Shown here one piece after another: positions 459-13,569 of a DNA stretch of 32,000 bases (the stretch's first letter is position 1; the number at the start of each line of letters is the position of its first letter). Below the pieces are notes generated by a model. That model was not told the DNA's origin. It saw nothing but the letters and a program-made list of their open reading frames with translations, and did not search any database. Origin of the DNA: a virus; the IMG/VR virus record IMGVR_UViG_3300045988_016577, positions 2 through 32,001 of that record; one strand, written 5' to 3'. Both the position numbers and the translations under genes were made by a program.

Positions 459-491
459 TTGCCTATGATGGATAGATATATTATACCAAAT

Positions 492-519
492 AAAAAAAGC
501 CCCAGCAAATGCTAGGGCT
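492..519 (-). terminator. Rho-independent terminator of the lysis cassette
   Basis: agccccagc (498-506) and gctagggct (511-519) form a stem (one mismatch) with a 4-nt loop. On the minus strand it is followed by U7, encoded by a492-a498. It lies about 95 nt downstream of the endolysin stop. Confidence 0.6.
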
Positions 520-614
520 TCGACCACTACCACCATGATTTCCGAACTGTGGTCTGTCGGGAGGTGATATACTCCTTTTTATTTTATTTTGATTCGTGGT
601 CTGTTATTTACATT

Positions 615-1361
615 TTAGGCGAATGAACCGAATGACGTTACACGACGACCATTTTCTGATTGTCCGACTGCAACATAGCGACGATTACCAGACCCGCCAA
701 TGTAACTGATCCAGATATAGCCGTCAACATCACACCAGCCATCATAGTTGATAGTTTCACCGGCTCCATAGACTGCCACGATTTCAGCGCCTAGACCGGC
801 ACCAGCTCGAACGTTAAGAGCTGATACTTCAACCGTGAATGTCCCGGTTTCCTCGTTGATAGTAATTATACCATCAAACGGGGCTGGGGTTGGTGCAGGG
901 GATTGTGATTGGTTGTCCGTTGGGAAATAGAACCAGCCTACAATGCCATCAAAATTACGTGTGTTGTAACGAGCGGGACCACCGACATATAAGCTATCAG
1001 CGTTGCCGTCAATATTTTGCTCGATGGTTCGCATGGTGTAGCCGTCTGAATCTTCGATAACCAAGCCAGTGTGGCCGTATGAATGCCCTGCGATGTAAGT
1101 GGTATCCATGACGAATACAGCCCCACGACGTGGACGGCTGTCGAGGTTGCCTTCTTGGTTGTACTCGACCTCGTAGCCTGCTGCTGCCGCTGAGTTTAGC
1201 AAGTCAATGGCGTTACCCCAAAGAGCACGGCCAAAGAAGTTAATTGAGATAGAGTTAGGCAGGTCAACGCATTGTGTCCCCCACGATCCATCTGCATCAG
1301 TACCGACGCCGGCGTTAGCTAGATTTTCTGCGAATAGAATGATGTCATTATCTGTTGCCAT
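615..1361 (-). CDS. Endolysin: N-terminal CHAP amidase/peptidase domain, Pro/Ser/Thr linker, C-terminal SH3b-like cell-wall-binding domain
   Basis: 248-aa ORF. CHAP-type catalytic Cys context (WGTQCVDL) and His context (YGHTGLVI). Linker QSQSPAPTPAP. SH3b-like C-terminus (VRAGAGLGAEIVAVY...GYIWISY). Strong SD AAGGAGG 8 nt upstream of the ATG. It is the last gene of the late operon. Confidence 0.9.
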   Translation of the reverse strand: MATDNDIILFAENLANAGVGTDADGSWGTQCVDLPNSISINFFGRALWGNAIDLLNSAAAAGYEVEYNQEGNLDSRPRRGAVFVMDTTYIAGHSYGHTGLVIEDSDGYTMRTIEQNIDGNADSLYVGGPARYNTRNFDGIVGWFYFPTDNQSQSPAPTPAPFDGIITINEETGTFTVEVSALNVRAGAGLGAEIVAVYGAGETINYDGWCDVDGYIWISYIGGSGNRRYVAVGQSENGRRVTSFGSFA

Positions 1362-1379
1362 ATAGTAGGCCTCCTTAAA

Positions 1380-1652
1380 TTATTTTTGAATAGCTTGTTT
1401 AATCTCCGAAAGCGTTCTTTCCAATTCTTCGACTTTCTGTTTTAAAGTCTCAATTTCGCTTGTAGGTAATTGAGATTTTGTTACAAGTGGGTCTTCCGCC
1501 CATTTGTTTTGCTCTACAACCTGTTGGAAAAAGTTATTATAAGTCGGAAATAACCCATACGCTTGGCTGATAGACAAGGATGAAGATTGTTTATCTTTAA
1601 TTTCCTTGATATCGTTCCCGACCGCTTGAGCAAATTCTGTGAACTTACTCAT
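1380..1652 (-). CDS. Hypothetical small phage protein, N-terminal paralog of 1657..1986
   Basis: 90-aa ORF. N-terminus MSKFTEFAQAVGNDIKEIK matches MSKLHDFAQAVGADIKEIK of the upstream gene. Coiled-coil-like C-terminus. Confidence 0.65.
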   Translation of the reverse strand: MSKFTEFAQAVGNDIKEIKDKQSSSLSISQAYGLFPTYNNFFQQVVEQNKWAEDPLVTKSQLPTSEIETLKQKVEELERTLSEIKQAIQK

Positions 1653-1656
1653 AGGC

Positions 1657-1986
1657 TCACGCTTTCGCTGTGTTGTATACGCTCACAAGGTCTTCTTGCT
1701 CGATGGTATCGAGACGGCCACCCAATTCGGTCATTTTCGAGATAATGCCGCTATCAGTATTGCCACCCGCTGCACTGATTTTATCAGCAATTTCTTTGAG
1801 CGTATCAAGTTCTTCCGGTGCATTACCGATGATATCAGCCTTAGCTTGCGTGATTGCGGTGTTAAGTTGGTCTTGAGTGATACCGTTAGCGGTCACTTCG
1901 CCTTTCTCAGCCTTGCCAGCTAATGCCGTTTTAATTTCCTTGATATCCGCACCCACGGCTTGGGCAAAATCGTGTAATTTACTCAT
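1657..1986 (-). CDS. Small fibre-like phage protein
   Basis: 109-aa ORF with SD AAGGA. Contains the GNAPEELDTLKEIADKI motif, which I recall from phage tail-fibre proteins. The C-terminus EDLVSVYNTAKA resembles the C-terminus of 2000..2452. Confidence 0.65.
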   Translation of the reverse strand: MSKLHDFAQAVGADIKEIKTALAGKAEKGEVTANGITQDQLNTAITQAKADIIGNAPEELDTLKEIADKISAAGGNTDSGIISKMTELGGRLDTIEQEDLVSVYNTAKA

Positions 1987-1999
1987 TTATTGTTTCCTT

Positions 2000-2452
2000 T
2001 CAAATTTTAGCTAGATTGTAGATATTAACGAGGTCTTCCGTAGTATCACTGCCACCAGTAATTAACCCAGACTCTCGCAATTCATCCGCTAGTAACTTTA
2101 ATTTAGGGCTCTTGTCCGATGGCACGACGCTATCTGCATTCAGTGAGTTCTTCACTTTGACCTTGAAATTATTAGACGGGAAAATATGTCCGTTCAGTTT
2201 AATTTCGAGGTAGTATGTTCCGGGCTCTACGACATCCCCCATGACGAATGTAAAATGTCCGTTCTCAACGGTTACATCTTGGTAGAGTGCCACCGTTTCG
2301 TCGTTTGACAGCGTGAGCTTACCAGTGCCGGACAGTTCCATGCGTTTTCCATCGTAACCCAAAATTTCAAAACCAAATACGGAAGTGGTGTCCCCAGATT
2401 TTAGGACATCACCGCCTTGAATTTGGTTGATAGAGGTCATGAGCTTAGCCAT
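2000..2452 (-). CDS. Hypothetical phage protein, beta-rich and possibly Ig-like
   Basis: 150-aa ORF with SD GAGGA 7 nt upstream. Its C-terminal motif EDLVNIYNLAKI is shared with 1657..1986. Confidence 0.65.
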   Translation of the reverse strand: MAKLMTSINQIQGGDVLKSGDTTSVFGFEILGYDGKRMELSGTGKLTLSNDETVALYQDVTVENGHFTFVMGDVVEPGTYYLEIKLNGHIFPSNNFKVKVKNSLNADSVVPSDKSPKLKLLADELRESGLITGGSDTTEDLVNIYNLAKI

Positions 2453-2455
2453 AGG

Positions 2456-2692
2456 CTAGTCCTCGCGAGGTTCGTTATAGTTTAAAGCTCGTTCACTGTC
2501 TGCAACGCCCTTGGTAGTTGGGTCAGTAACGATTCCGAGGATAACCAAAATTACAACGAAAGTATTTACACCCTCTTGGATATTGTGTGGGATATTAAGC
2601 CCGAATTGTTGCAACATCAAGAATACTGCTGAGATAAGAGCTACTAGAGTAGCTTTGTTTTGCAAACGTAGTTTAAAATTAATCATTGTCAT
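2456..2692 (-). CDS. Holin, phage phi LC3-type family
   Basis: 78-aa ORF with two hydrophobic helices and the motif DPTTKGVADSERALNYNEP, typical of phi LC3-family holins. SD AAGGAG upstream. The start could be either of two ATGs (MTM...). Confidence 0.85.
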   Translation of the reverse strand: MTMINFKLRLQNKATLVALISAVFLMLQQFGLNIPHNIQEGVNTFVVILVILGIVTDPTTKGVADSERALNYNEPRED

Positions 2693-3110
2693 TCTTCTCC
2701 TTTTCTTCTGAGTTAAGAAAAAACTTCTCTTTGTCGATATTTTTCTTAATGTATTTGTCGATATAAGGGATTTCCACCCCTAGTGCTGATAGACTAGCCA
2801 AAATACTAGATCCGTAAGCCGCAATCATGGCAAAGATAAATGTATCTAGGACACCACCTAAATTCATGAATACTGCGAACGGATAGAAGATGGCTACAAA
2901 CGTAATCATGGCTGTATGACTGACTAGCCCTTTACGAAATTTAGAGCTTGAAAACTCATGAGCGGCCCAAGCCCTGGACACACCAATAACGATATCGCTG
3001 AAAATGATAATCATGAGCAGGAACACCCATAAATGCTCATCGATACCGTGTGCATAGAAGTCTCTGACCACATCGAAAACCCCAAAAATACCGTCTGGTT
3101 TCTGTGCCAT
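2679..3110 (-). CDS. Holin-like membrane protein (Phage_holin_4-like, 3-4 TM helices)
   Basis: Start trimmed from the ORF-track start (3137) to the ATG at 3110. That ATG has SD AAGGAG 5 nt upstream and overlaps the stop of the preceding ORF (TGATG). The protein is strongly hydrophobic. Confidence 0.75.
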   Translation of the reverse strand: MAQKPDGIFGVFDVVRDFYAHGIDEHLWVFLLMIIIFSDIVIGVSRAWAAHEFSSSKFRKGLVSHTAMITFVAIFYPFAVFMNLGGVLDTFIFAMIAAYGSSILASLSALGVEIPYIDKYIKKNIDKEKFFLNSEEKEKNDND

Positions 3111-9704: not shown

Positions 9705-12128
9705 TTAATAGTTATCAAGCATTAATTCCATTGACTGAGCGTTAGTGATGTCCTCAGTAAATGCTCTGTAAGTTGTATCACCCATCTTGAGCACGATATC
9801 CGCTGCTTGTTGAGTAACTGACATCTTACCACCGTTGAATGAAACGGATGGATCATACCCTGCTAAACGACCTAACTGGCCATCCATGCTACCAAGTTCA
9901 TCAGTGATAGCTCCGTTGATGTCTTGCCCGGTGAATGCGTCGATAGCTCCTTGGGCCATATAGCGCATTGAACGGGCTACTTGGTCCGCTTTGCTATCAA
10001 TACCAATGATGAAACCTTTATCCGTGTAGATACCGAATTGACGGAATACACGGGATGGCGATTTGATACCAAGCAAAGCTTTAGCTCCGTTAATGGCATT
10101 ACTTACCGCACCTTTAACCGCTGAAATCAGTTTGCCGGCTGCAGATGTAACCCCGCTAACGAAACCGCTAATCAATTGAGAACCAACGCTTGCAGCTTGC
10201 CCAACGAATCCACGGGCTGCACTAAGTGCACCGCTGAACGCTGAGCGGACCGCTGAAATGATACGCTGACCGGCACTTGTTACCGCTGATACCACGGCAC
10301 TAAATCCGCTAGTAATAGCTGATTGAATTGAGCTCATGGCGCTTGATACTGCTGACCTAACAGCGCTCCATGCTGAGCTGATAATGCTCTGAACCGAGCT
10401 CATAGCGCTTGAAACGATTGACTGGATAGATGCCCATGTACTTGATACAGTGCTAGCAATCGCACTTAGTACGCTACTAATAAGTGACAAAATGGCGTTC
10501 CAAATCGCACTGATAGTGGCTTGAATAGCTGACATAATTGACGAAATAGCCGCTTGAACTTGTGAGAAGTTACCAGTAACCAAACCGACAATAGCAGCTA
10601 ATACACCAGCCAAAACAGCTTGAATCCCCGTCCAGATAGCGTTCCAAATCGCTTGAATAGCTGACAAAGTGCTTGAAATAATGCTTGATATGCCGGCCAT
10701 GATAGGTGACAGAATAGACATGATTGTATTCCAAACTGTCGAGAAAACTGTCTGGATAACTGTCCACGCCGCTGACCAAATGGATTGAATCACGGCGATA
10801 CCGGCACTAATCACACCGCTAATGGCAGTCATAGCTCCGCCAGCGATTTGTTGAAGTAATGCCCAAAGCGTTTGGAATGGAATAGCTAACAATGCCCATG
10901 CTGCGTTCCAGATAGCGAGAATGAATTGAATACCCGCTTGGATAATCGGACCAATAGCATTGATACCGATTGAAACAAGAGACTTGATACCTTCCCACAC
11001 AGTAGACAAGATAGTCTTGAGTGTTTCCCACGCTCCAGACCAGTCACCTTGTAAGATTTGCATAGCCATCTTAATGATGTTTAACACGATTTCAAGAGCC
11101 GTGGAAATGACAGTGGTAATAAGTTGCCAAGATGTAGAAAACAATGTAATAAGCAAATTCAAGCCAGTTTGAATCACTGGTAAGATAGCGTTCATTACAT
11201 TTTCAATCACACCCTTAAACATGTTCCAGTAAGTTGTCGCCGTTTGCATAATCAAGGCGTGGTTTTCGTTCCAGAATGAAGTCAACTGCCCCCAAATTGA
11301 CATAACGAACGACACAATGGCTTGAACAGCGCTAGTGATTGCACTCTTGATGGTTTCCCAGATTGCCGTAACTTGTGCACGGAAATTCTCGTTATTGTTC
11401 CATAAGTCAACGAGCGCAGCCCCAACTAGAGCCACTGCAGCAACAATGCCGGCAAAAGCAGCAAGAGCCCCGGCTGATAGCCCGCTAAAAGCGGCACCTA
11501 GACCGCTAGCTGCGGTAGAACCGCTTGAAAAGAACCCTACTACTGAGCTGATAGCTCCACCGATTGTGCTCAATGCTGAAACAACGTTCCCGATCCAAAT
11601 GATTAAGGTTCCTAATATTGCAATAATAGGCCCCGCCGCTCCAATGATCAGCGCTGCCCATTTAACCCAGCCGTCTACTGGCAGATTGTCCCAGATAGTC
11701 CCTAGAACACGCACCACATTGTCTTTAAATGTGATGATAGTCTGCTTCATGTTTTCCATGAGTTGCTTGATATTAGCTTCGTTGTTCCCAAGACCGGCCA
11801 CTAAGTTTTCAGCGGCAGCCTTCATGGAATTGAACGAACCGGACACGGTTGTACTCGCTTCTTTTGCGGTCGTTCCGGTTACTCCAAGTCTATCTTGAGT
11901 AATACCAATGGCATCAATCAAGGTATGGAATGGGATATCACGGATATTGTCAGCTGTAGCTTCGAATTCACCGTTTAAGACACCAGATTCATTGACCAAA
12001 CGAGCCATTTCGGACATGGTACCGCCATAACCAAGTTTCAAGTTATCCAGCATTGAATAGTTGTCTTTGGCAAAACCTTGATAAGCGTTTTGAATGTCCG
12101 TCATGTTAGTACCGAACTTGTTTGCGTT
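9705..12128 (-). CDS. Tape measure protein, exon 2 (C-terminal 807 aa)
   Basis: Begins NANKFGTNMTDIQNAYQGFAKDNYSMLDNLKLGYGGT, the conserved TP901-type TMP core. A long Ala/Ser/Ile-rich region follows with periodic Trp/Phe. The first 5 codons of the ORF-track ORF (GTG at 12143) are intron sequence. Confidence 0.85.
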   Translation of the reverse strand, partial: NANKFGTNMTDIQNAYQGFAKDNYSMLDNLKLGYGGTMSEMARLVNESGVLNGEFEATADNIRDIPFHTLIDAIGITQDRLGVTGTTAKEASTTVSGSFNSMKAAAENLVAGLGNNEANIKQLMENMKQTIITFKDNVVRVLGTIWDNLPVDGWVKWAALIIGAAGPIIAILGTLIIWIGNVVSALSTIGGAISSVVGFFSSGSTAASGLGAAFSGLSAGALAAFAGIVAAVALVGAALVDLWNNNENFRAQVTAIWETIKSAITSAVQAIVSFVMSIWGQLTSFWNENHALIMQTATTYWNMFKGVIENVMNAILPVIQTGLNLLITLFSTSWQLITTVISTALEIVLNIIKMAMQILQGDWSGAWETLKTILSTVWEGIKSLVSIGINAIGPIIQAGIQFILAIWNAAWALLAIPFQTLWALLQQIAGGAMTAISGVISAGIAVIQSIWSAAWTVIQTVFSTVWNTIMSILSPIMAGISSIISSTLSAIQAIWNAIWTGIQAVLAGVLAAIVGLVTGNFSQVQAAISSIMSAIQATISAIWNAILSLISSVLSAIASTVSSTWASIQSIVSSAMSSVQSIISSAWSAVRSAVSSAMSSIQSAITSGFSAVVSAVTSAGQRIISAVRSAFSGALSAARGFVGQAASVGSQLISGFVSGVTSAAGKLISAVKGAVSNAINGAKALLGIKSPSRVFRQFGIYTDKGFIIGIDSKADQVARSMRYMAQGAIDAFTGQDINGAITDELGSMDGQLGRLAGYDPSVSFNGGKMSVTQQAADIVLKMGDTTYRAFTEDITNAQSMELMLDNY

Positions 12129-13023
12129 CCTTAGTACCCCCACTTTCGTGGTATTTAAAAAGACCTACAATTAATGTTAGGTCTTAGGGAGTAGACTATA
12201 TCATGTTATACAAATTCAAATTTGTGCCCTTTATGAATACCACCATGATTGCACGCTCTTGAAACTTCTGATTTAGTAAAACCATCCTTCGCTGTTTCAA
12301 TTAGGGCGCCGTAAATTTTCTGTTCTCCGGTCGTGATATTAGTTGATTTCACCTTTTTCGCTTTTTTGCTCTTTGAACCGAATTTTCCATAGTTGGGATG
12401 CTTACTCCCTGAAATATGGTTAATCAATCCGTGTTTATAAGCGTGAATTGTATTTTCTTGAACTGTCACCCACTCTAAATTATCGATAGAGTTATTCAAT
12501 TTATTGCCATCAATATGATTGACTTGGGGCAAGTTGTTTGGGTTGTCGATGAAATGGGTAGCAATAAGTCTGTGAATGTAAAACTGTTTACGCTTCCTAT
12601 GAACCGAAAGCGTTACCCTATAATATCCGTTTGGTGCGATATCTGGGTTTAAGGTTTTACCTTTCCAAGATCTAGTTCTACCTCGTGGGTCTGTTTGTGT
12701 TCTGTCTTTGCTTCTTACAATTCCTTTATCTGAAATCTCATAATAATCTTCGTAACCTTCGATGTCTTCAAACATAATAATACCGCCTTTTCGTATGGTA
12801 CTATTATATCACAAATTTGGCATTTTGCACAACCGCACCGCTTCGGTTTGCGTATCAATAGCAAACCTACTTCCTCTCGGAATAGTCGTTACACTTTCTA
12901 CTTTCGTAGCTTAGCACGGGATTGTCATAGGCTTGTACCCTTAGAGTTTCCCCGTTAGCAAGCGATACAATACCGCTCACACCCCTGATTGGGTTCAATG
13001 CGTTTTAGTCGGACTAACATTTT
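12129..13023 (-). mobile_element. Group I intron (895 nt) interrupting the tape measure gene, carrying an HNH homing endonuclease ORF
   Basis: P1: exon GUCGGAU (13030-13024) pairs with intron GUCCGAC (13014-13008), with the U.G wobble at the splice site. P10: GUU (13018-13016) pairs with exon-2 AAC (12128-12126). The last intron nucleotide is G (12129). GAAA-tetraloop hairpins lie at 12898-12909 and 12140-12151. An 8-bp hairpin spans 12160-12185. Exon ligation is in frame. Confidence 0.8.
12206..12775 (-). CDS. HNH homing endonuclease (NUMOD4 N-terminus plus HNH_3 core), intron-encoded
   Basis: 189-aa ORF. NUMOD4-like N-terminus IEGYEDYYEISDKGIVRS. HNH motif VNHIDGNKLNNSIDNLEWVTVQENTIHA. Basic C-terminal DNA-binding tail. 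Own SD (AAAGGCGG) and an extended -10 (TGATATAAT, 12803-12811) upstream. Confidence 0.9.
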   Translation of the reverse strand: MFEDIEGYEDYYEISDKGIVRSKDRTQTDPRGRTRSWKGKTLNPDIAPNGYYRVTLSVHRKRKQFYIHRLIATHFIDNPNNLPQVNHIDGNKLNNSIDNLEWVTVQENTIHAYKHGLINHISGSKHPNYGKFGSKSKKAKKVKSTNITTGEQKIYGALIETAKDGFTKSEVSRACNHGGIHKGHKFEFV

Positions 13024-13569
13024 ATCCGACATTTGGACAAGGGCTTTATCCCCGTATTTCGCAGCCTTGGCAGTGTCCCCGCCTAGACCTTGTAGCAAAG
13101 TAGCTGAGAACGATGTGACCTGCTCCATGTATCTGTTAGCAGACACACCAGCCGTCCTATAGGCTCGGTTGGCGTTCTCGATAACATTGGTCCCCTCACG
13201 GTCCATTGTGTTATAAAGCGCTTGGGCTTGCTCCCTGGTCATGCCGTAATCTCTGGCAAGTGTATTGACACTTGAGCCATTCTGTTTGAACAGTGTAGAA
13301 ACACCGCCTAACGATTGCTCAAGGTCTGCATAACCTTTGATTACGGCCGTCAGACCTCCGACCATGGGCAGTGTGAAAGCTGTAGTCATCCCAGCTCCGA
13401 CTGACTGCATGGCACTACCGACTGACTTCAAACTGCTACCAACTTGAGCGAGCATGCCCCCAGACTGATTTCTCAAATCAGCAAGGGCAGACTTGGCAGC
13501 ATTGACACCATTGGTGAAGTCGCTTGAGTTGGCACGTAATATGGCCGTAACGTCAAAAGATGCTCCCAT
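13024..13569 (-). CDS. Tape measure protein, exon 1 (N-terminal 182 aa)
   Basis: Reads MGASFDVTAILRANSSDF...AAKYGDKALVQMSD. The remaining 22 codons of the ORF-track ORF (KMLVRLKRIEPNQGCERYCIAC) are read-through into the intron. Confidence 0.85.

What the first reader, a model, noticed from the sequence alone, without database searches (positions are those of the whole stretch)
12129..13023. Self-splicing group I intron with an HNH homing endonuclease splits the tape measure protein gene
ORFs 12955..13569 and 9705..12143 are the two halves of one TMP. Exon 1 reads ...AAKYGDKALVQMSD and then runs 22 atypical codons to a stop. The downstream ORF becomes TMP-like only at NANKFGTNMTDIQNAYQGFAKDNYSMLDNLKLGYGGT. 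Joining 13024 to 12128 is in frame and restores ...LVQMSD|NANKFGT... in the most conserved TMP core, giving 182 + 807 = 989 aa. At roughly 0.15 nm per residue, that predicts a tail near 150 nm. The 895-nt insert shows group I hallmarks directly. Exon GUCGGAU (13030-13024) pairs with the intron guide GUCCGAC (13014-13008) as a 7-bp P1 whose last pair is the U.G wobble at the proposed 5' splice site. GUU just 5' of the guide (13018-13016) pairs with the first exon-2 bases AAC (P10). The intron ends in G (12129). Two GAAA-tetraloop hairpins and several long stems flank a free-standing NUMOD4/HNH ORF, which has its own SD and a TGATATAAT extended -10. Automated annotation would call this a broken TMP plus a stray HNH gene. 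I am not aware of a characterised intron in a streptococcal phage TMP gene, but I cannot verify novelty here.
Basis: partly seen in the sequence, partly recalled or inferred. Interest (0 to 1): 0.8.

Follow-up and report, generated by a model that had tools for sequence, protein, structure and literature searches.

The report
Group I intron splitting phage tape-measure gene
An 895-base self-splicing-type (group I) intron carrying its own homing-endonuclease gene interrupts the tail tape-measure gene of this streptococcal phage; the call is correct, but it is one member of a widespread intron family, not a new kind of element.

Summary
Window 13023..12129 (minus strand, 895 nt) is exactly absent from a 94%-identical phage (L011), whose tape measure protein (TMP) reads straight through ...LVQMSDNANKFGT.... 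Hundreds of uninterrupted TMPs are colinear across that junction.

The insert has a 7-bp P1 ending in U.G, a terminal G, and a core (P3, P4-P6, P7, P7.1, P7.2, P8) backed by strong covariation: 99.5% of cells paired and 25 of 45 pairs with compensatory changes. A covariance model built only from relatives at another site scores the window at 136.9 bits.

Rfam RF00028 gives only 20.3 bits (threshold 50). The I-HmuI-like HNH gene sits inside the P8 loop, and the true J8/7-P7' lies after its stop codon. ORF-less relatives pass the threshold.

This is not a novel kind. TMP group I introns were described in Bacillus cereus-group prophages in 2008. About 20 same-site copies exist in public contigs, and streptococcal phage records already hold such introns, mostly misannotated. 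Sister introns occupy three more sites within about 40 codons, with up to three in one gene. Splicing itself was not tested.

The parts
13024..13569 (-). TMP exon 1 (182 codons, ...AAKYGDKALVQMSD)
   Evidence: It is 94% identical to L011 up to exactly this point.
12129..13023 (-). Group I intron, 895 nt (subgroup IA-like, with P7.1 and P7.2)
   Evidence: Exactly absent from L011-L014. Homologous same-site introns occur in L015, L116, L118, L120, L135 and others. Lineage CM gives 136.9 bits. RF00028 gives 20.3 bits, sub-threshold.
9705..12128 (-). TMP exon 2 (807 codons plus stop, NANKFGTNMTDIQNAYQGF...)
13008..13030 (-). P1: exon GUCGGAU (13030..13024) paired with internal guide GUCCGAC (13014..13008). 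The U.G pair marks the 5' splice site.
   Evidence: Recovered by RNAfold alone. Co-varies: exon UCG goes with guide GUCCGA and exon GCG with guide GUCCGC in 20 of 21 same-site introns.
13016..13018 (-). P10 intron strand GUU, pairing with exon-2 AAC (12128..12126)
   Evidence: Window-type GUU/AAC against AUU/AAU in L015, L129, L134, L140 and GCAUU/AAUGC in L120. Absent in several other copies, so support is moderate.
12996..13002 (-). P3 5' strand CGCAUUG (pairs with 12840..12834)
   Evidence: 7 bp. Five of its pairs show compensatory changes across 17 sequences.
12958..12994 (-). Two extra hairpins between the P3 5' strand and J3/4: ACCC...GGGU (12994..12981) and GUGAGCG...CGCUUGC (12980..12958)
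   Evidence: RNAalifold and pair counts. The second hairpin has 3 co-varying pairs. The position is unusual for group I introns.
12893..12957 (-). J3/4 (UAA) and the P4-P5-P6 domain: P4 ACGGGG/UCCCGU, P5/P5a, and P6/P6a with the GAAA loop at 12905..12902
   Evidence: Sequence similarity to Twort, nrdD and TerL introns.
12882..12887 (-). P7 5' strand GACUAU (within AACGACUAU)
   Evidence: Invariant in the family and identical to the Twort and Rfam consensus. Pairs with 12199..12194.
12845..12881 (-). P7.1 (UCC-GAGA-GGA, 12881..12872) and P7.2 (GGUUUGC...GCAAACC, 12867..12845)
   Evidence: P7.2 has 6 of 7 pairs with compensatory changes. P7.1 co-varies.
12834..12840 (-). P3 3' strand CGGUGCG
12824..12833 (-). 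P8 5' strand GUUGUGCAAA
   Evidence: Pairs with 12214..12205. Strands defined by position pair in every lineage member, with about 12 sequence variants.
12803..12819 (-). Upstream copy of direct repeat CAAATTTG (12819..12812), followed by the extended -10-like TGATATAAT (12811..12803)
   Evidence: TGnTAnnAT is present at the same position in 11 of 13 ORF-containing same-site introns. Both ORF-less forms examined for it lack it: L015C (site C) and the site-A intron of L134. The promoter function is inferred. The consensus scan found no -35/-10 pair here.
12206..12775 (-). Homing endonuclease gene (189 aa, NUMOD4 + HNH_3, I-HmuI-like). The SD AAAGGCGG lies at 12790..12783.
   Evidence: Pfam. PHROG 59 HNH endonuclease, E 1.2e-43. 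Full-length match to I-HmuI, PDB 1U3E, E 2.4e-14.
12205..12224 (-). Downstream copy of CAAATTTG (12224..12217) and P8 3' strand UUUGUAUAAC (12214..12205), which overlaps the last two codons and the stop of the HNH ORF
12194..12204 (-). J8/7 and P7 3' strand (AUGAUAUAGUC). This is the true J8/7-P7'.
   Evidence: GAUAUAGUCUA is conserved after the ORF in all relatives and sits directly after P8 in ORF-less L015C.
12129..12189 (-). P9 region: CCC/GGG, hairpin AAGACCUA...UAGGUCUU followed by a U-run (12185..12160), GAAA hairpin CCAC-GAAA-GUGG (12151..12140), and terminal G at 12129
   Evidence: The tail UUUAAAUA-hairpin-GGGUA is conserved across the family. The long hairpin co-varies between copies.

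Best explanation
Window 13023..12129 (minus strand) is a mobile group I intron of the phage IA type, with P7.1 and P7.2. It is inserted in the conserved N-terminal block of the tail tape-measure gene, between the codons for ...VQMSD and NANKFGT....

Inferred mechanism, from the established group I pathway:
- The late transcript folds.
- P1 (exon GUCGGAU with guide GUCCGAC) presents the U.G pair at 13024.
- A free guanosine bound in P7 attacks there.
- The terminal G (12129) then replaces it, and the exons are ligated, helped by a short P10.
- The result is an mRNA for one 989-aa TMP.

The P8 loop carries an independent cassette: a TGnTATAAT promoter-like element, a Shine-Dalgarno sequence and a 189-aa I-HmuI-like HNH endonuclease gene. 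By analogy with I-HmuI, this enzyme is inferred to nick intron-less TMP alleles of co-infecting or resident relatives. Repair would then copy the intron in (homing).

Shown here: exact presence/absence of the insert, the in-frame colinear junction, the RNA structure with covariation, and homology of the RNA and the protein to proven elements. Inferred only: catalysis, promoter use, endonuclease activity and target.
For: Presence/absence and junction:
- L011-L014 (94% identical flanks) lack exactly these 895 nt. They carry a different 282-nt intron at a site that is continuous in the window.
- P0001 is 99% identical over exon 1 and continues ...MSDNANKFGT....
- 344 of 380 phage records match the junction peptide in one piece, and the alignment has no gap at the junction.

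RNA structure:
- RNAalifold on 17 sequences including the window recovers P3, P4, P5, P6, P7.1 and P7.2. That is 45 pairs, 25 of them with compensatory changes.
- 99.5% of cells are paired, against 81% in shuffles and 37-45% in slid registers. The covariation score is 0.516 against 0.139 and about 0.07. None of 500 shuffles reaches the observed value.
- P8 strands defined by position pair in all members.
- P1 and P10 co-vary with the exon sequence.
- The window sequence folded alone recovers the same helices, z about -3.

Membership:
- CM R1, built from 13 site-C cores only, scores the window at 136.9 bits, E 2.4e-50, over the full model length. It also detects MissG1 (59.6 bits) and the Twort introns (27-51 bits).
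- Rfam passes ORF-less lineage members (51.5 and 53.0 bits), site-D introns (about 60), MissG1 (69), Str-PAP-1 intron 1 (82) and Twort (64-101).
- The core matches Twort, nrdD and TerL introns by blastn.

Endonuclease:
- NUMOD4 + HNH_3 domains and a full-length I-HmuI match.

Mobility:
- About 20 same-site copies sit in different phage backgrounds, in both ORF-containing and ORF-less forms.
Against: - RF00028 does not reach its gathering score on the window: 20.3 against 50 bits. This is explained but not removed, because an ORF-deleted sequence could not be submitted to the Rfam tool.
- No RNA or splicing data exist here.
- P7 and P9 (CCC/GGG) are invariant, so they carry no covariation evidence.
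- P10 is only 3 bp and is absent from several same-site relatives.
- The two hairpins between P3 and J3/4 are not part of the textbook architecture.
- A hairpin followed by a U-run inside P9 looks like a terminator. It could lower read-through into exon 2, though the scan tool did not call it.
Confidence: 0.9

Rival explanations
1. The intron is decayed. The RNA descends from a group I intron but no longer splices, so this (pro)phage has a broken tape-measure gene and is defective.
For: The window may be a prophage, and nothing here shows viability. RF00028 scores only 20.3 bits. P8 in the window has two G.U pairs where L015 has A-U.
Against: Every helix of the comparative model is intact in the window, with 100% pairing in P3, P4, P5, P7.2 and P8. 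It scores as high against the lineage CM as other same-site copies. The exons, the HNH ORF and the rest of the structural module are open and 94-96% identical to independent contigs L011 and L135.
Confidence: 0.05
2. The gene is split without RNA splicing. A homing-endonuclease cassette has cut the TMP gene into two separately translated polypeptides that assemble, as in some phage genes split by free-standing endonuclease genes.
For: Automated annotation of relatives calls two TMP CDSs plus an HNH gene. A GTG-initiated ORF (12143..9705) covers exon 2.
Against: It does not explain the roughly 325 nt of non-coding sequence with a conserved, co-varying ribozyme fold, nor P1 and P10 co-varying with the exons. 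ORF-less copies of 293-304 nt occupy the same site, so the insertion unit is the RNA element and not the endonuclease gene. The GTG lies inside a P9 hairpin, 5 codons upstream of the junction, without a convincing ribosome-binding site.
Confidence: 0.03
3. It is another kind of intervening element: an intein, a group II intron, or an insertion sequence.
For: None, beyond the bare fact that the gene is interrupted.
Against: The insert has in-frame stops after 22 codons, so it is not an intein. It has no reverse transcriptase or maturase and no transposase, and the only Rfam signal in the region is RF00028. The only repeat flanking anything is the 8-nt repeat around the internal ORF cassette.
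Confidence: 0.01

Closest known systems
Group I introns TMP-IVS1, IVS2, IVS3a/b in the tape-measure gene of Bacillus cereus-group prophages (Tourasse and Kolsto 2008, PMC2504315)
   Same: Same host gene (phage TMP) and same intron class (IA1/IA2). Several nearby insertion sites occur in one gene. Related introns are retargeted through changes in P1/IGS. Copies exist with and without a complete endonuclease gene, and they insert in the most conserved part of the gene.
   Different: Different hosts (Bacillus rather than Streptococcus and other Firmicutes). I could not compare sequences or exact sites, because the figures are not held. Here four sites lie within about 40 codons, and one contig has three introns within about 120 nt of coding sequence.
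Staphylococcus phage Twort orf142 group I introns (AF132670; the Twort ribozyme)
   Same: Direct sequence similarity of the core: AACGACUAUUCCGA-AGGAAGUAGG, P7.1/P7.2 and GAUAUAGUCU. Detected by the lineage CM at 27-51 bits. There are also three introns in one structural gene.
   Different: The Twort introns are ORF-less and have a canonical P2 and P3-J3/4 junction, and they pass Rfam at 64-101 bits. The window intron lacks P2, has two hairpins between P3 and J3/4, and carries an ORF in P8.
Bacillus phage SPO1/SP82 DNA-polymerase intron with I-HmuI/I-HmuII
   Same: The intron-encoded protein is a full-length homologue of I-HmuI (1U3E, E 2.4e-14). From my own knowledge, not checked here: I-HmuI is a nicking HNH enzyme encoded in a phage group I intron.
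   Different: Different host gene (DNA polymerase rather than TMP). Only the sequence match was measured here. The target and the cleavage chemistry of the window enzyme are untested.
[quoted passage not shown] 2000, as cited in PMC3952083)
   Same: A streptococcal phage late gene interrupted by a group I intron with an endonuclease ORF, with naturally occurring ORF-deleted derivatives (compare L134).
   Different: Different gene and a different intron. No similarity to it was looked for here.
Public streptococcal and lactococcal phage records with TMP introns: MissG1, IPP23, Str-PAP-1, Javan271, Lactococcus phage 38502
   Same: Same TMP block interrupted by introns of the same or a sister lineage.
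   Different: They use other sites. Site C (NYT|MLDN) is used by 38502, Javan271 and Str-PAP-1. Site B (NKMG|) is used by Str-PAP-1, and site D (LKLG|YGG) by Javan271. None in the INPHARED collection was seen at the window's site A. Most are annotated as two TMP genes.

Membership tests
Group I intron | P1 helix between the end of the 5' exon and an internal guide sequence, with a U.G wobble at the 5' splice site | tested here: met
   GUCGGAU/GUCCGAC, 7 bp ending in U.G. A compensatory U-A to G-C change tracks the exon codon in 20 of 21 same-site introns.
Group I intron | The intron ends in G (omega G) immediately before the 3' exon | tested here: met
   G at 12129. The boundary is fixed to within 2 nt by the intron-less allele L011, and only this register gives both U(-1) and a terminal G.
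Group I intron | Conserved core helices in canonical order: P3, P4-P6, P7, P8, with the P3/P7 pseudoknot | tested here: met
   P3, P4, P5, P6, P7.1 and P7.2 are supported by covariation, and P8. P7 GACUAU/AUAGUC is invariant and matches the consensus. The order P3-[P4-P6]-P7-P7.1-P7.2-P3'-P8-P7' holds. Caveat: two extra hairpins lie between P3 and J3/4.
Group I intron | Score at or above the Rfam RF00028 gathering threshold (50 bits) | tested here: not met
   The window scores 20.3 bits, E 0.015. ORF-less members of the same lineage score 51.5 and 53.0 bits. Lineage CM R1 gives the window 136.9 bits. The failure is attributed to the 570-nt ORF in P8 and to misalignment by cmscan.
Group I intron | Guanosine-dependent self-splicing with exon ligation | not testable with these tools
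   Needs RT-PCR or an in vitro splicing assay.
Subgroup IA (phage type) | Extra helices P7.1 and P7.2 between P7 and P3' | tested here: met
   Both are present and co-vary. Assignment to IA1, IA2 or IA3 was not attempted. The definition of the subclass is from my own knowledge.
Mobile (homing) group I intron | Presence/absence polymorphism at an identical site in otherwise homologous genes | tested here: met
   The window and L135 carry it, while L011-L014 (94% identical) lack it. The same site is occupied in TMPs only about 45-62% identical.
HNH homing endonuclease, I-HmuI-like | HNH nuclease domain with the conserved His/Asn motif, plus a NUMOD-type DNA-binding module | tested here: met
   PF13392 and PF07463. 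Alignment to 1U3E over residues 3-186 with the HRL...NH.DGNK.NN...NL.WVT motif conserved.
HNH homing endonuclease, I-HmuI-like | Site-specific nicking or cleavage of the intron-less allele | not testable with these tools
   Needs a cleavage assay on the L011-type sequence ...CAAATGTCTGAT|AATGCGAATAAA...
Tail tape measure protein | Position between the tail chaperone genes and the Dit/Tal genes, and homology to TMP families | tested here: met
   The spliced N-terminus matches PHROG 6900, 3981 and 991, 'tail length tape measure protein', with E down to 1e-71. The gene order is seen in L011 and in the window ORFs.

The most novel reading that the evidence does not exclude
The window intron belongs to a large, apparently undescribed lineage of phage group I introns. 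The lineage has spread over at least four insertion sites within about 40 codons of one conserved tape-measure block, with up to three introns in a single gene, by changing only its guide region. It also carries two extra conserved hairpins at an unusual place, between P3 and J3/4. Generic Rfam-based annotation largely misses it when the endonuclease ORF sits in P8. If so, it would be a natural system for studying how group I introns retarget to neighbouring sites, and a systematic source of 'broken' TMP annotations.
Probability: 0.4. Interest if true: 0.45.

Novelty: new member of a known kind. Interest (0 to 1): 0.3.

Why it matters
**Annotation.** Automated pipelines call this locus a truncated TMP, a stray HNH gene and a second TMP, as in the public records of Lactococcus phage 38502, Str-PAP-1 and Javan271. 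Recognising the intron restores a single 989-aa tape measure and avoids scoring the phage as defective.

**Detection method.** The standard Rfam model misses this lineage when an ORF occupies P8. A lineage-specific model finds it at over 130 bits.

**Biology.** It adds a well-documented example of a homing intron targeting the most conserved stretch of a structural gene, with sister introns at adjacent sites. This may be useful for studying intron retargeting and marker exclusion between competing temperate phages. It does not reveal a new mechanism.

Tried and rejected
- **cmscan's layout and my first hand model.** Both placed J8/7-P7' at the TGATATAAT upstream of the ORF, and I had added a 'P9.0' GUACC/GGUAC pairing enclosing the ORF. 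I rejected this once the family alignment showed the canonical GAUAUAGUCUA after the ORF in every relative, and directly after P8 in ORF-less L015C.
- **An alternative P3.** Pairing CUUGC (just 5' of J3/4) with GAAG-proximal bases is not conserved in relatives. The Rfam alignment of L015C uses it only with mismatches.
- **MAFFT seed alignments A2 and A3.** They offset the P3 5' strand by one column between site-A and site-C introns. I used anchored extraction and a larger alignment instead.
- **My first regex extraction.** It mis-registered several loci and was fixed.
- **Scan of species genomes for the site-A signature.** It gave 10 hits across many phyla. About 9 chance hits are expected for this pattern in 596 Gb, and CM R1 finds no core in six of them. 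The apparent cross-phylum spread is therefore rejected. Only Tissierellia, Lachnospiraceae and two low-coverage 'Streptomyces' contigs are real, and the last are probably contamination.
- **Consensus promoter/terminator scan.** It found neither the extended -10 (which has no -35) nor the P9 hairpin (loop too long), so it gives no support either way.
- **Megablast against phage genomes.** No close full-length relative of the window was found.
- **Literature searches.** No paper on a streptococcal TMP intron was found.
Full report
**What is there.** On the minus strand the window has three ORFs in a row.
- The first is a 204-aa ORF (13569..12955). Its first 182 codons are tape-measure-like.
- The second is a 189-aa NUMOD4 + HNH_3 ORF (12775..12206; Pfam E 1.9e-14 and 1.3e-9).
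- The third is an 812-aa ORF (12143..9705). It becomes TMP-like from its sixth codon.
- Joining 13024 to 12128 is in frame and gives 182 + 807 = 989 aa.
- The joined N-terminus matches PHROG tape-measure families with E down to 1e-71.
- The locus sits where a TMP gene belongs: after the major tail and chaperone genes and before Dit/Tal (gene calls of the 94%-identical contig L011).

**Is the junction real?**
- A 200-aa peptide spanning the junction matches 380 phage records by tblastn. In 344 of them the match is a single uninterrupted piece.
- Javan85, SMP and Javan383 align across ...VQMSD|NANKFGT... with no gap.
- A protein search with the 'broken' exon-1 ORF found P0001. It is 99% identical over exactly the 182 exon-1 residues and continues ...LVQMSDNANKFGTNMTDIQNAYQGFAKDNYSMLDNLKLG.
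- Its contigs (L011-L014) are 94% identical to the window on both sides, and window 13023..12129 is exactly missing.
- The DNA comparison leaves a 2-nt AA ambiguity in the boundaries.
- The polymorphism is reciprocal. L011 carries its own 282-nt insertion after ...LKLG, at a point where the window is continuous. That insertion's core is 82% identical to the window intron's core.

**Rfam.**
- At the gathering threshold the whole window has no hit.
- Scanning 12000..13150 alone gives RF00028 at 20.3 bits (threshold 50), E 0.015.
- That alignment took the TGATATAAT upstream of the ORF for J8/7-P7'. This is wrong.
- A family alignment shows the canonical GAUAUAGUCUA directly after the HNH stop codon in all relatives. 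In the ORF-less relative L015C it sits directly after a short P8.
- The ORF therefore lies in the P8 loop. P8 is GUUGUGCAAA (12833..12824) paired with UUUGUAUAAC (12214..12205), and the second strand overlaps the last two codons and the stop.
- ORF-less members of the same lineage pass Rfam (L015C 51.5 bits, L084 53.0). So do site-D introns (about 60), MissG1 (69.4), Str-PAP-1 intron 1 (82.1) and the three Twort introns (64-101).
- Rfam's generic model still force-fits this lineage poorly around P3 and P8.

**Structure and covariation.**
- A core motif scan of IMG/VR gave 100 loci. Anchored extraction gave 21 distinct cores.
- RNAalifold on 17 sequences including the window, with no structural input, predicted P3, two hairpins, P4, P5/P5a, P6/P6a, P7.1 and P7.2. 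That is 45 pairs, 25 of them with compensatory double changes.
- The formal count gives 99.5% of cells paired, against 81.0 +/- 0.9% for shuffles and 37-45% for slid registers.
- The covariation score is 0.516, against 0.139 for shuffles and about 0.07 for slid registers. None of 500 shuffles reaches the observed value on four of five measures.
- P3 (CGCAUUG/CGGUGCG in the window) shows all four Watson-Crick pairs at its central position.
- P8 strands defined purely by position pair in every member, with about 12 sequence variants. They enclose either about 20 nt or 490-630 nt.
- The window's sequence folded alone recovers P1, P3, both hairpins, P4, P5, P6a, P7.1, P7.2 and P8. The 5' domain folds at -55.4 kcal/mol, z about -3.
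- As an independent test I built a covariance model from 13 site-C cores only. The window's 13002..12834 scores 136.9 bits, E 2.4e-50, over the full model. The same model detects MissG1 (59.6 bits) and Twort (27-51 bits).

**Splice-site helices.**
- P1 is GUCGGAU/GUCCGAC, 7 bp ending in U.G.
- Across about 21 verified same-site introns, exon ...AUG UCG GAU goes with guide GUCCGA-. Exon ...AUG GCG GAU goes with GUCCGC-. There is one exception.
- P10 is GUU/AAC in the window type, AUU/AAU in L015, L129, L134 and L140, and GCAUU/AAUGC in L120. Several other copies lack it, so its support is moderate.

**The endonuclease cassette.**
- The protein aligns end to end with I-HmuI (PDB 1U3E, E 2.4e-14), with the HNH motif conserved.
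- More than 500 clusters of homologues exist, with a best identity of 86%.
- Three of the closest on long contigs are again in site-A TMP introns of unrelated phages. One has a myovirus-like gene layout.
- TGnTAnnAT lies at a constant position upstream of the ORF in 11 of 13 ORF-containing site-A introns. The ORF-less forms examined lack it: L015C at site C and the site-A intron of L134.
- The cassette is bracketed by an 8-nt direct repeat, CAAATTTG. The 304-nt intron of L134 equals the L015-type intron with everything between the repeats removed.
- Promoter activity, endonuclease activity and target are inferences.

**Family context.**
- The same conserved TMP block holds at least four insertion sites.
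  - Site A (MSD|NANK) is used by the window, L135, L015 and others.
  - Site B (NKMG|) is used by Str-PAP-1.
  - Site C (NYT|MLDN) is used by 38502, Javan271, Str-PAP-1 and all IMG/VR hits of the motif scan.
  - Site D (LKLG|YGG) is used by L011, L015 and Javan271.
- L015 has three introns within about 120 nt of coding sequence.
- Site-A and site-C introns share the core and the 3' tail but differ in P1. Site A also lacks the GNRA-capped P2 seen at site C.

**Known or new?**
- Group I introns in TMP genes, at three sites and of classes IA1/IA2, were described for B. cereus-group prophages in 2008 (PMC2504315).
- Streptococcal phage introns are known in the lysin gene (PMC3952083).
- I found no paper on a streptococcal TMP intron. 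Public records nevertheless contain them, and one (MissG1) is annotated as an ncRNA.
- An IMG/VR contig (L135) is 96% identical to the window over 9.2 kb, with the same intron.
- This is a new member of a known kind.

**Caveats.**
- Nothing here shows catalysis.
- P7 and P9 are invariant and therefore uninformative for covariation.
- The two hairpins between P3 and J3/4 are not textbook, and I could not place them in three dimensions.
- Six of the ten species-genome hits for the site-A signature are chance matches.
- The tail-length figure of about 150 nm is only a rule-of-thumb calculation.

Noticed in passing
L015:6556-8119 (Logan DRR502094): One TMP gene carries three group I introns, at sites A, C and D, within about 120 nt of coding sequence. 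The exons between them are only 77 nt and 22 nt. L122 has A + C, Javan271 has C + D, and Str-PAP-1 has B + C.
   Followed up: partly
window 12812-12819 and 12217-12224; L134:3599-3902: The promoter + HNH cassette is flanked by an 8-nt direct repeat, CAAATTTG. An ORF-less same-site intron (L134) corresponds exactly to deletion, or non-insertion, of everything between the repeats.
   Followed up: partly
window 12958-12994: Two covariation-supported hairpins lie between the P3 5' strand and J3/4. The second is often GNRA-capped in relatives. This is an unusual position for peripheral helices in group I introns, and Rfam's model misaligns the region.
   Followed up: partly
L001:2911-3774, L015:7532-7814 and other site-C introns: By my reading, site-C introns have only a weak P1 (GAU/GUC plus a bulged continuation), although the splice junction is unambiguous from the protein alignment. 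I did not resolve this.
   Followed up: no
L127, L131 (Streptomyces sp. P17 and P9 assemblies): Low-coverage contigs (5x and 1.7x) in Streptomyces assemblies carry a 44% GC site-A intron whose first 16 nt equal the window's. This is probably contamination by Firmicutes phage DNA.
   Followed up: no
L001, L002, L003 (Lactococcus phage 38502, Str-PAP-1, Javan271): The public annotations call two separate 'tape measure' or 'minor tail' CDSs plus HNH genes. These are intron-split single genes, and RF00028 at its gathering threshold misses the ORF-containing introns.
   Followed up: yes
window 13180-13263 (exon 1): The window TMP has a 28-aa segment (VNTLARDYGMTREQAQALYNTMDREGTN) that is absent from Javan85, SMP and Javan383 but present in the closer metagenomic relatives P0002-P0009.
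   Followed up: no
window 12160-12185: A hairpin AAGACCUA...UAGGUCUU followed by UUUUU sits inside P9, upstream of exon 2, and looks like an intrinsic terminator. It co-varies between copies but is missing in some (L120, L015C). Its effect on TMP expression is unknown.
   Followed up: partly
window 487-2701: S. thermophilus phage VA460 matches this lysis region across 4.4 kb of its record, which includes an 'endonuclease' between two 'lysin' CDSs. The window's lysin therefore seems to lack the classical lysin-gene intron. I did not check this.
   Followed up: no
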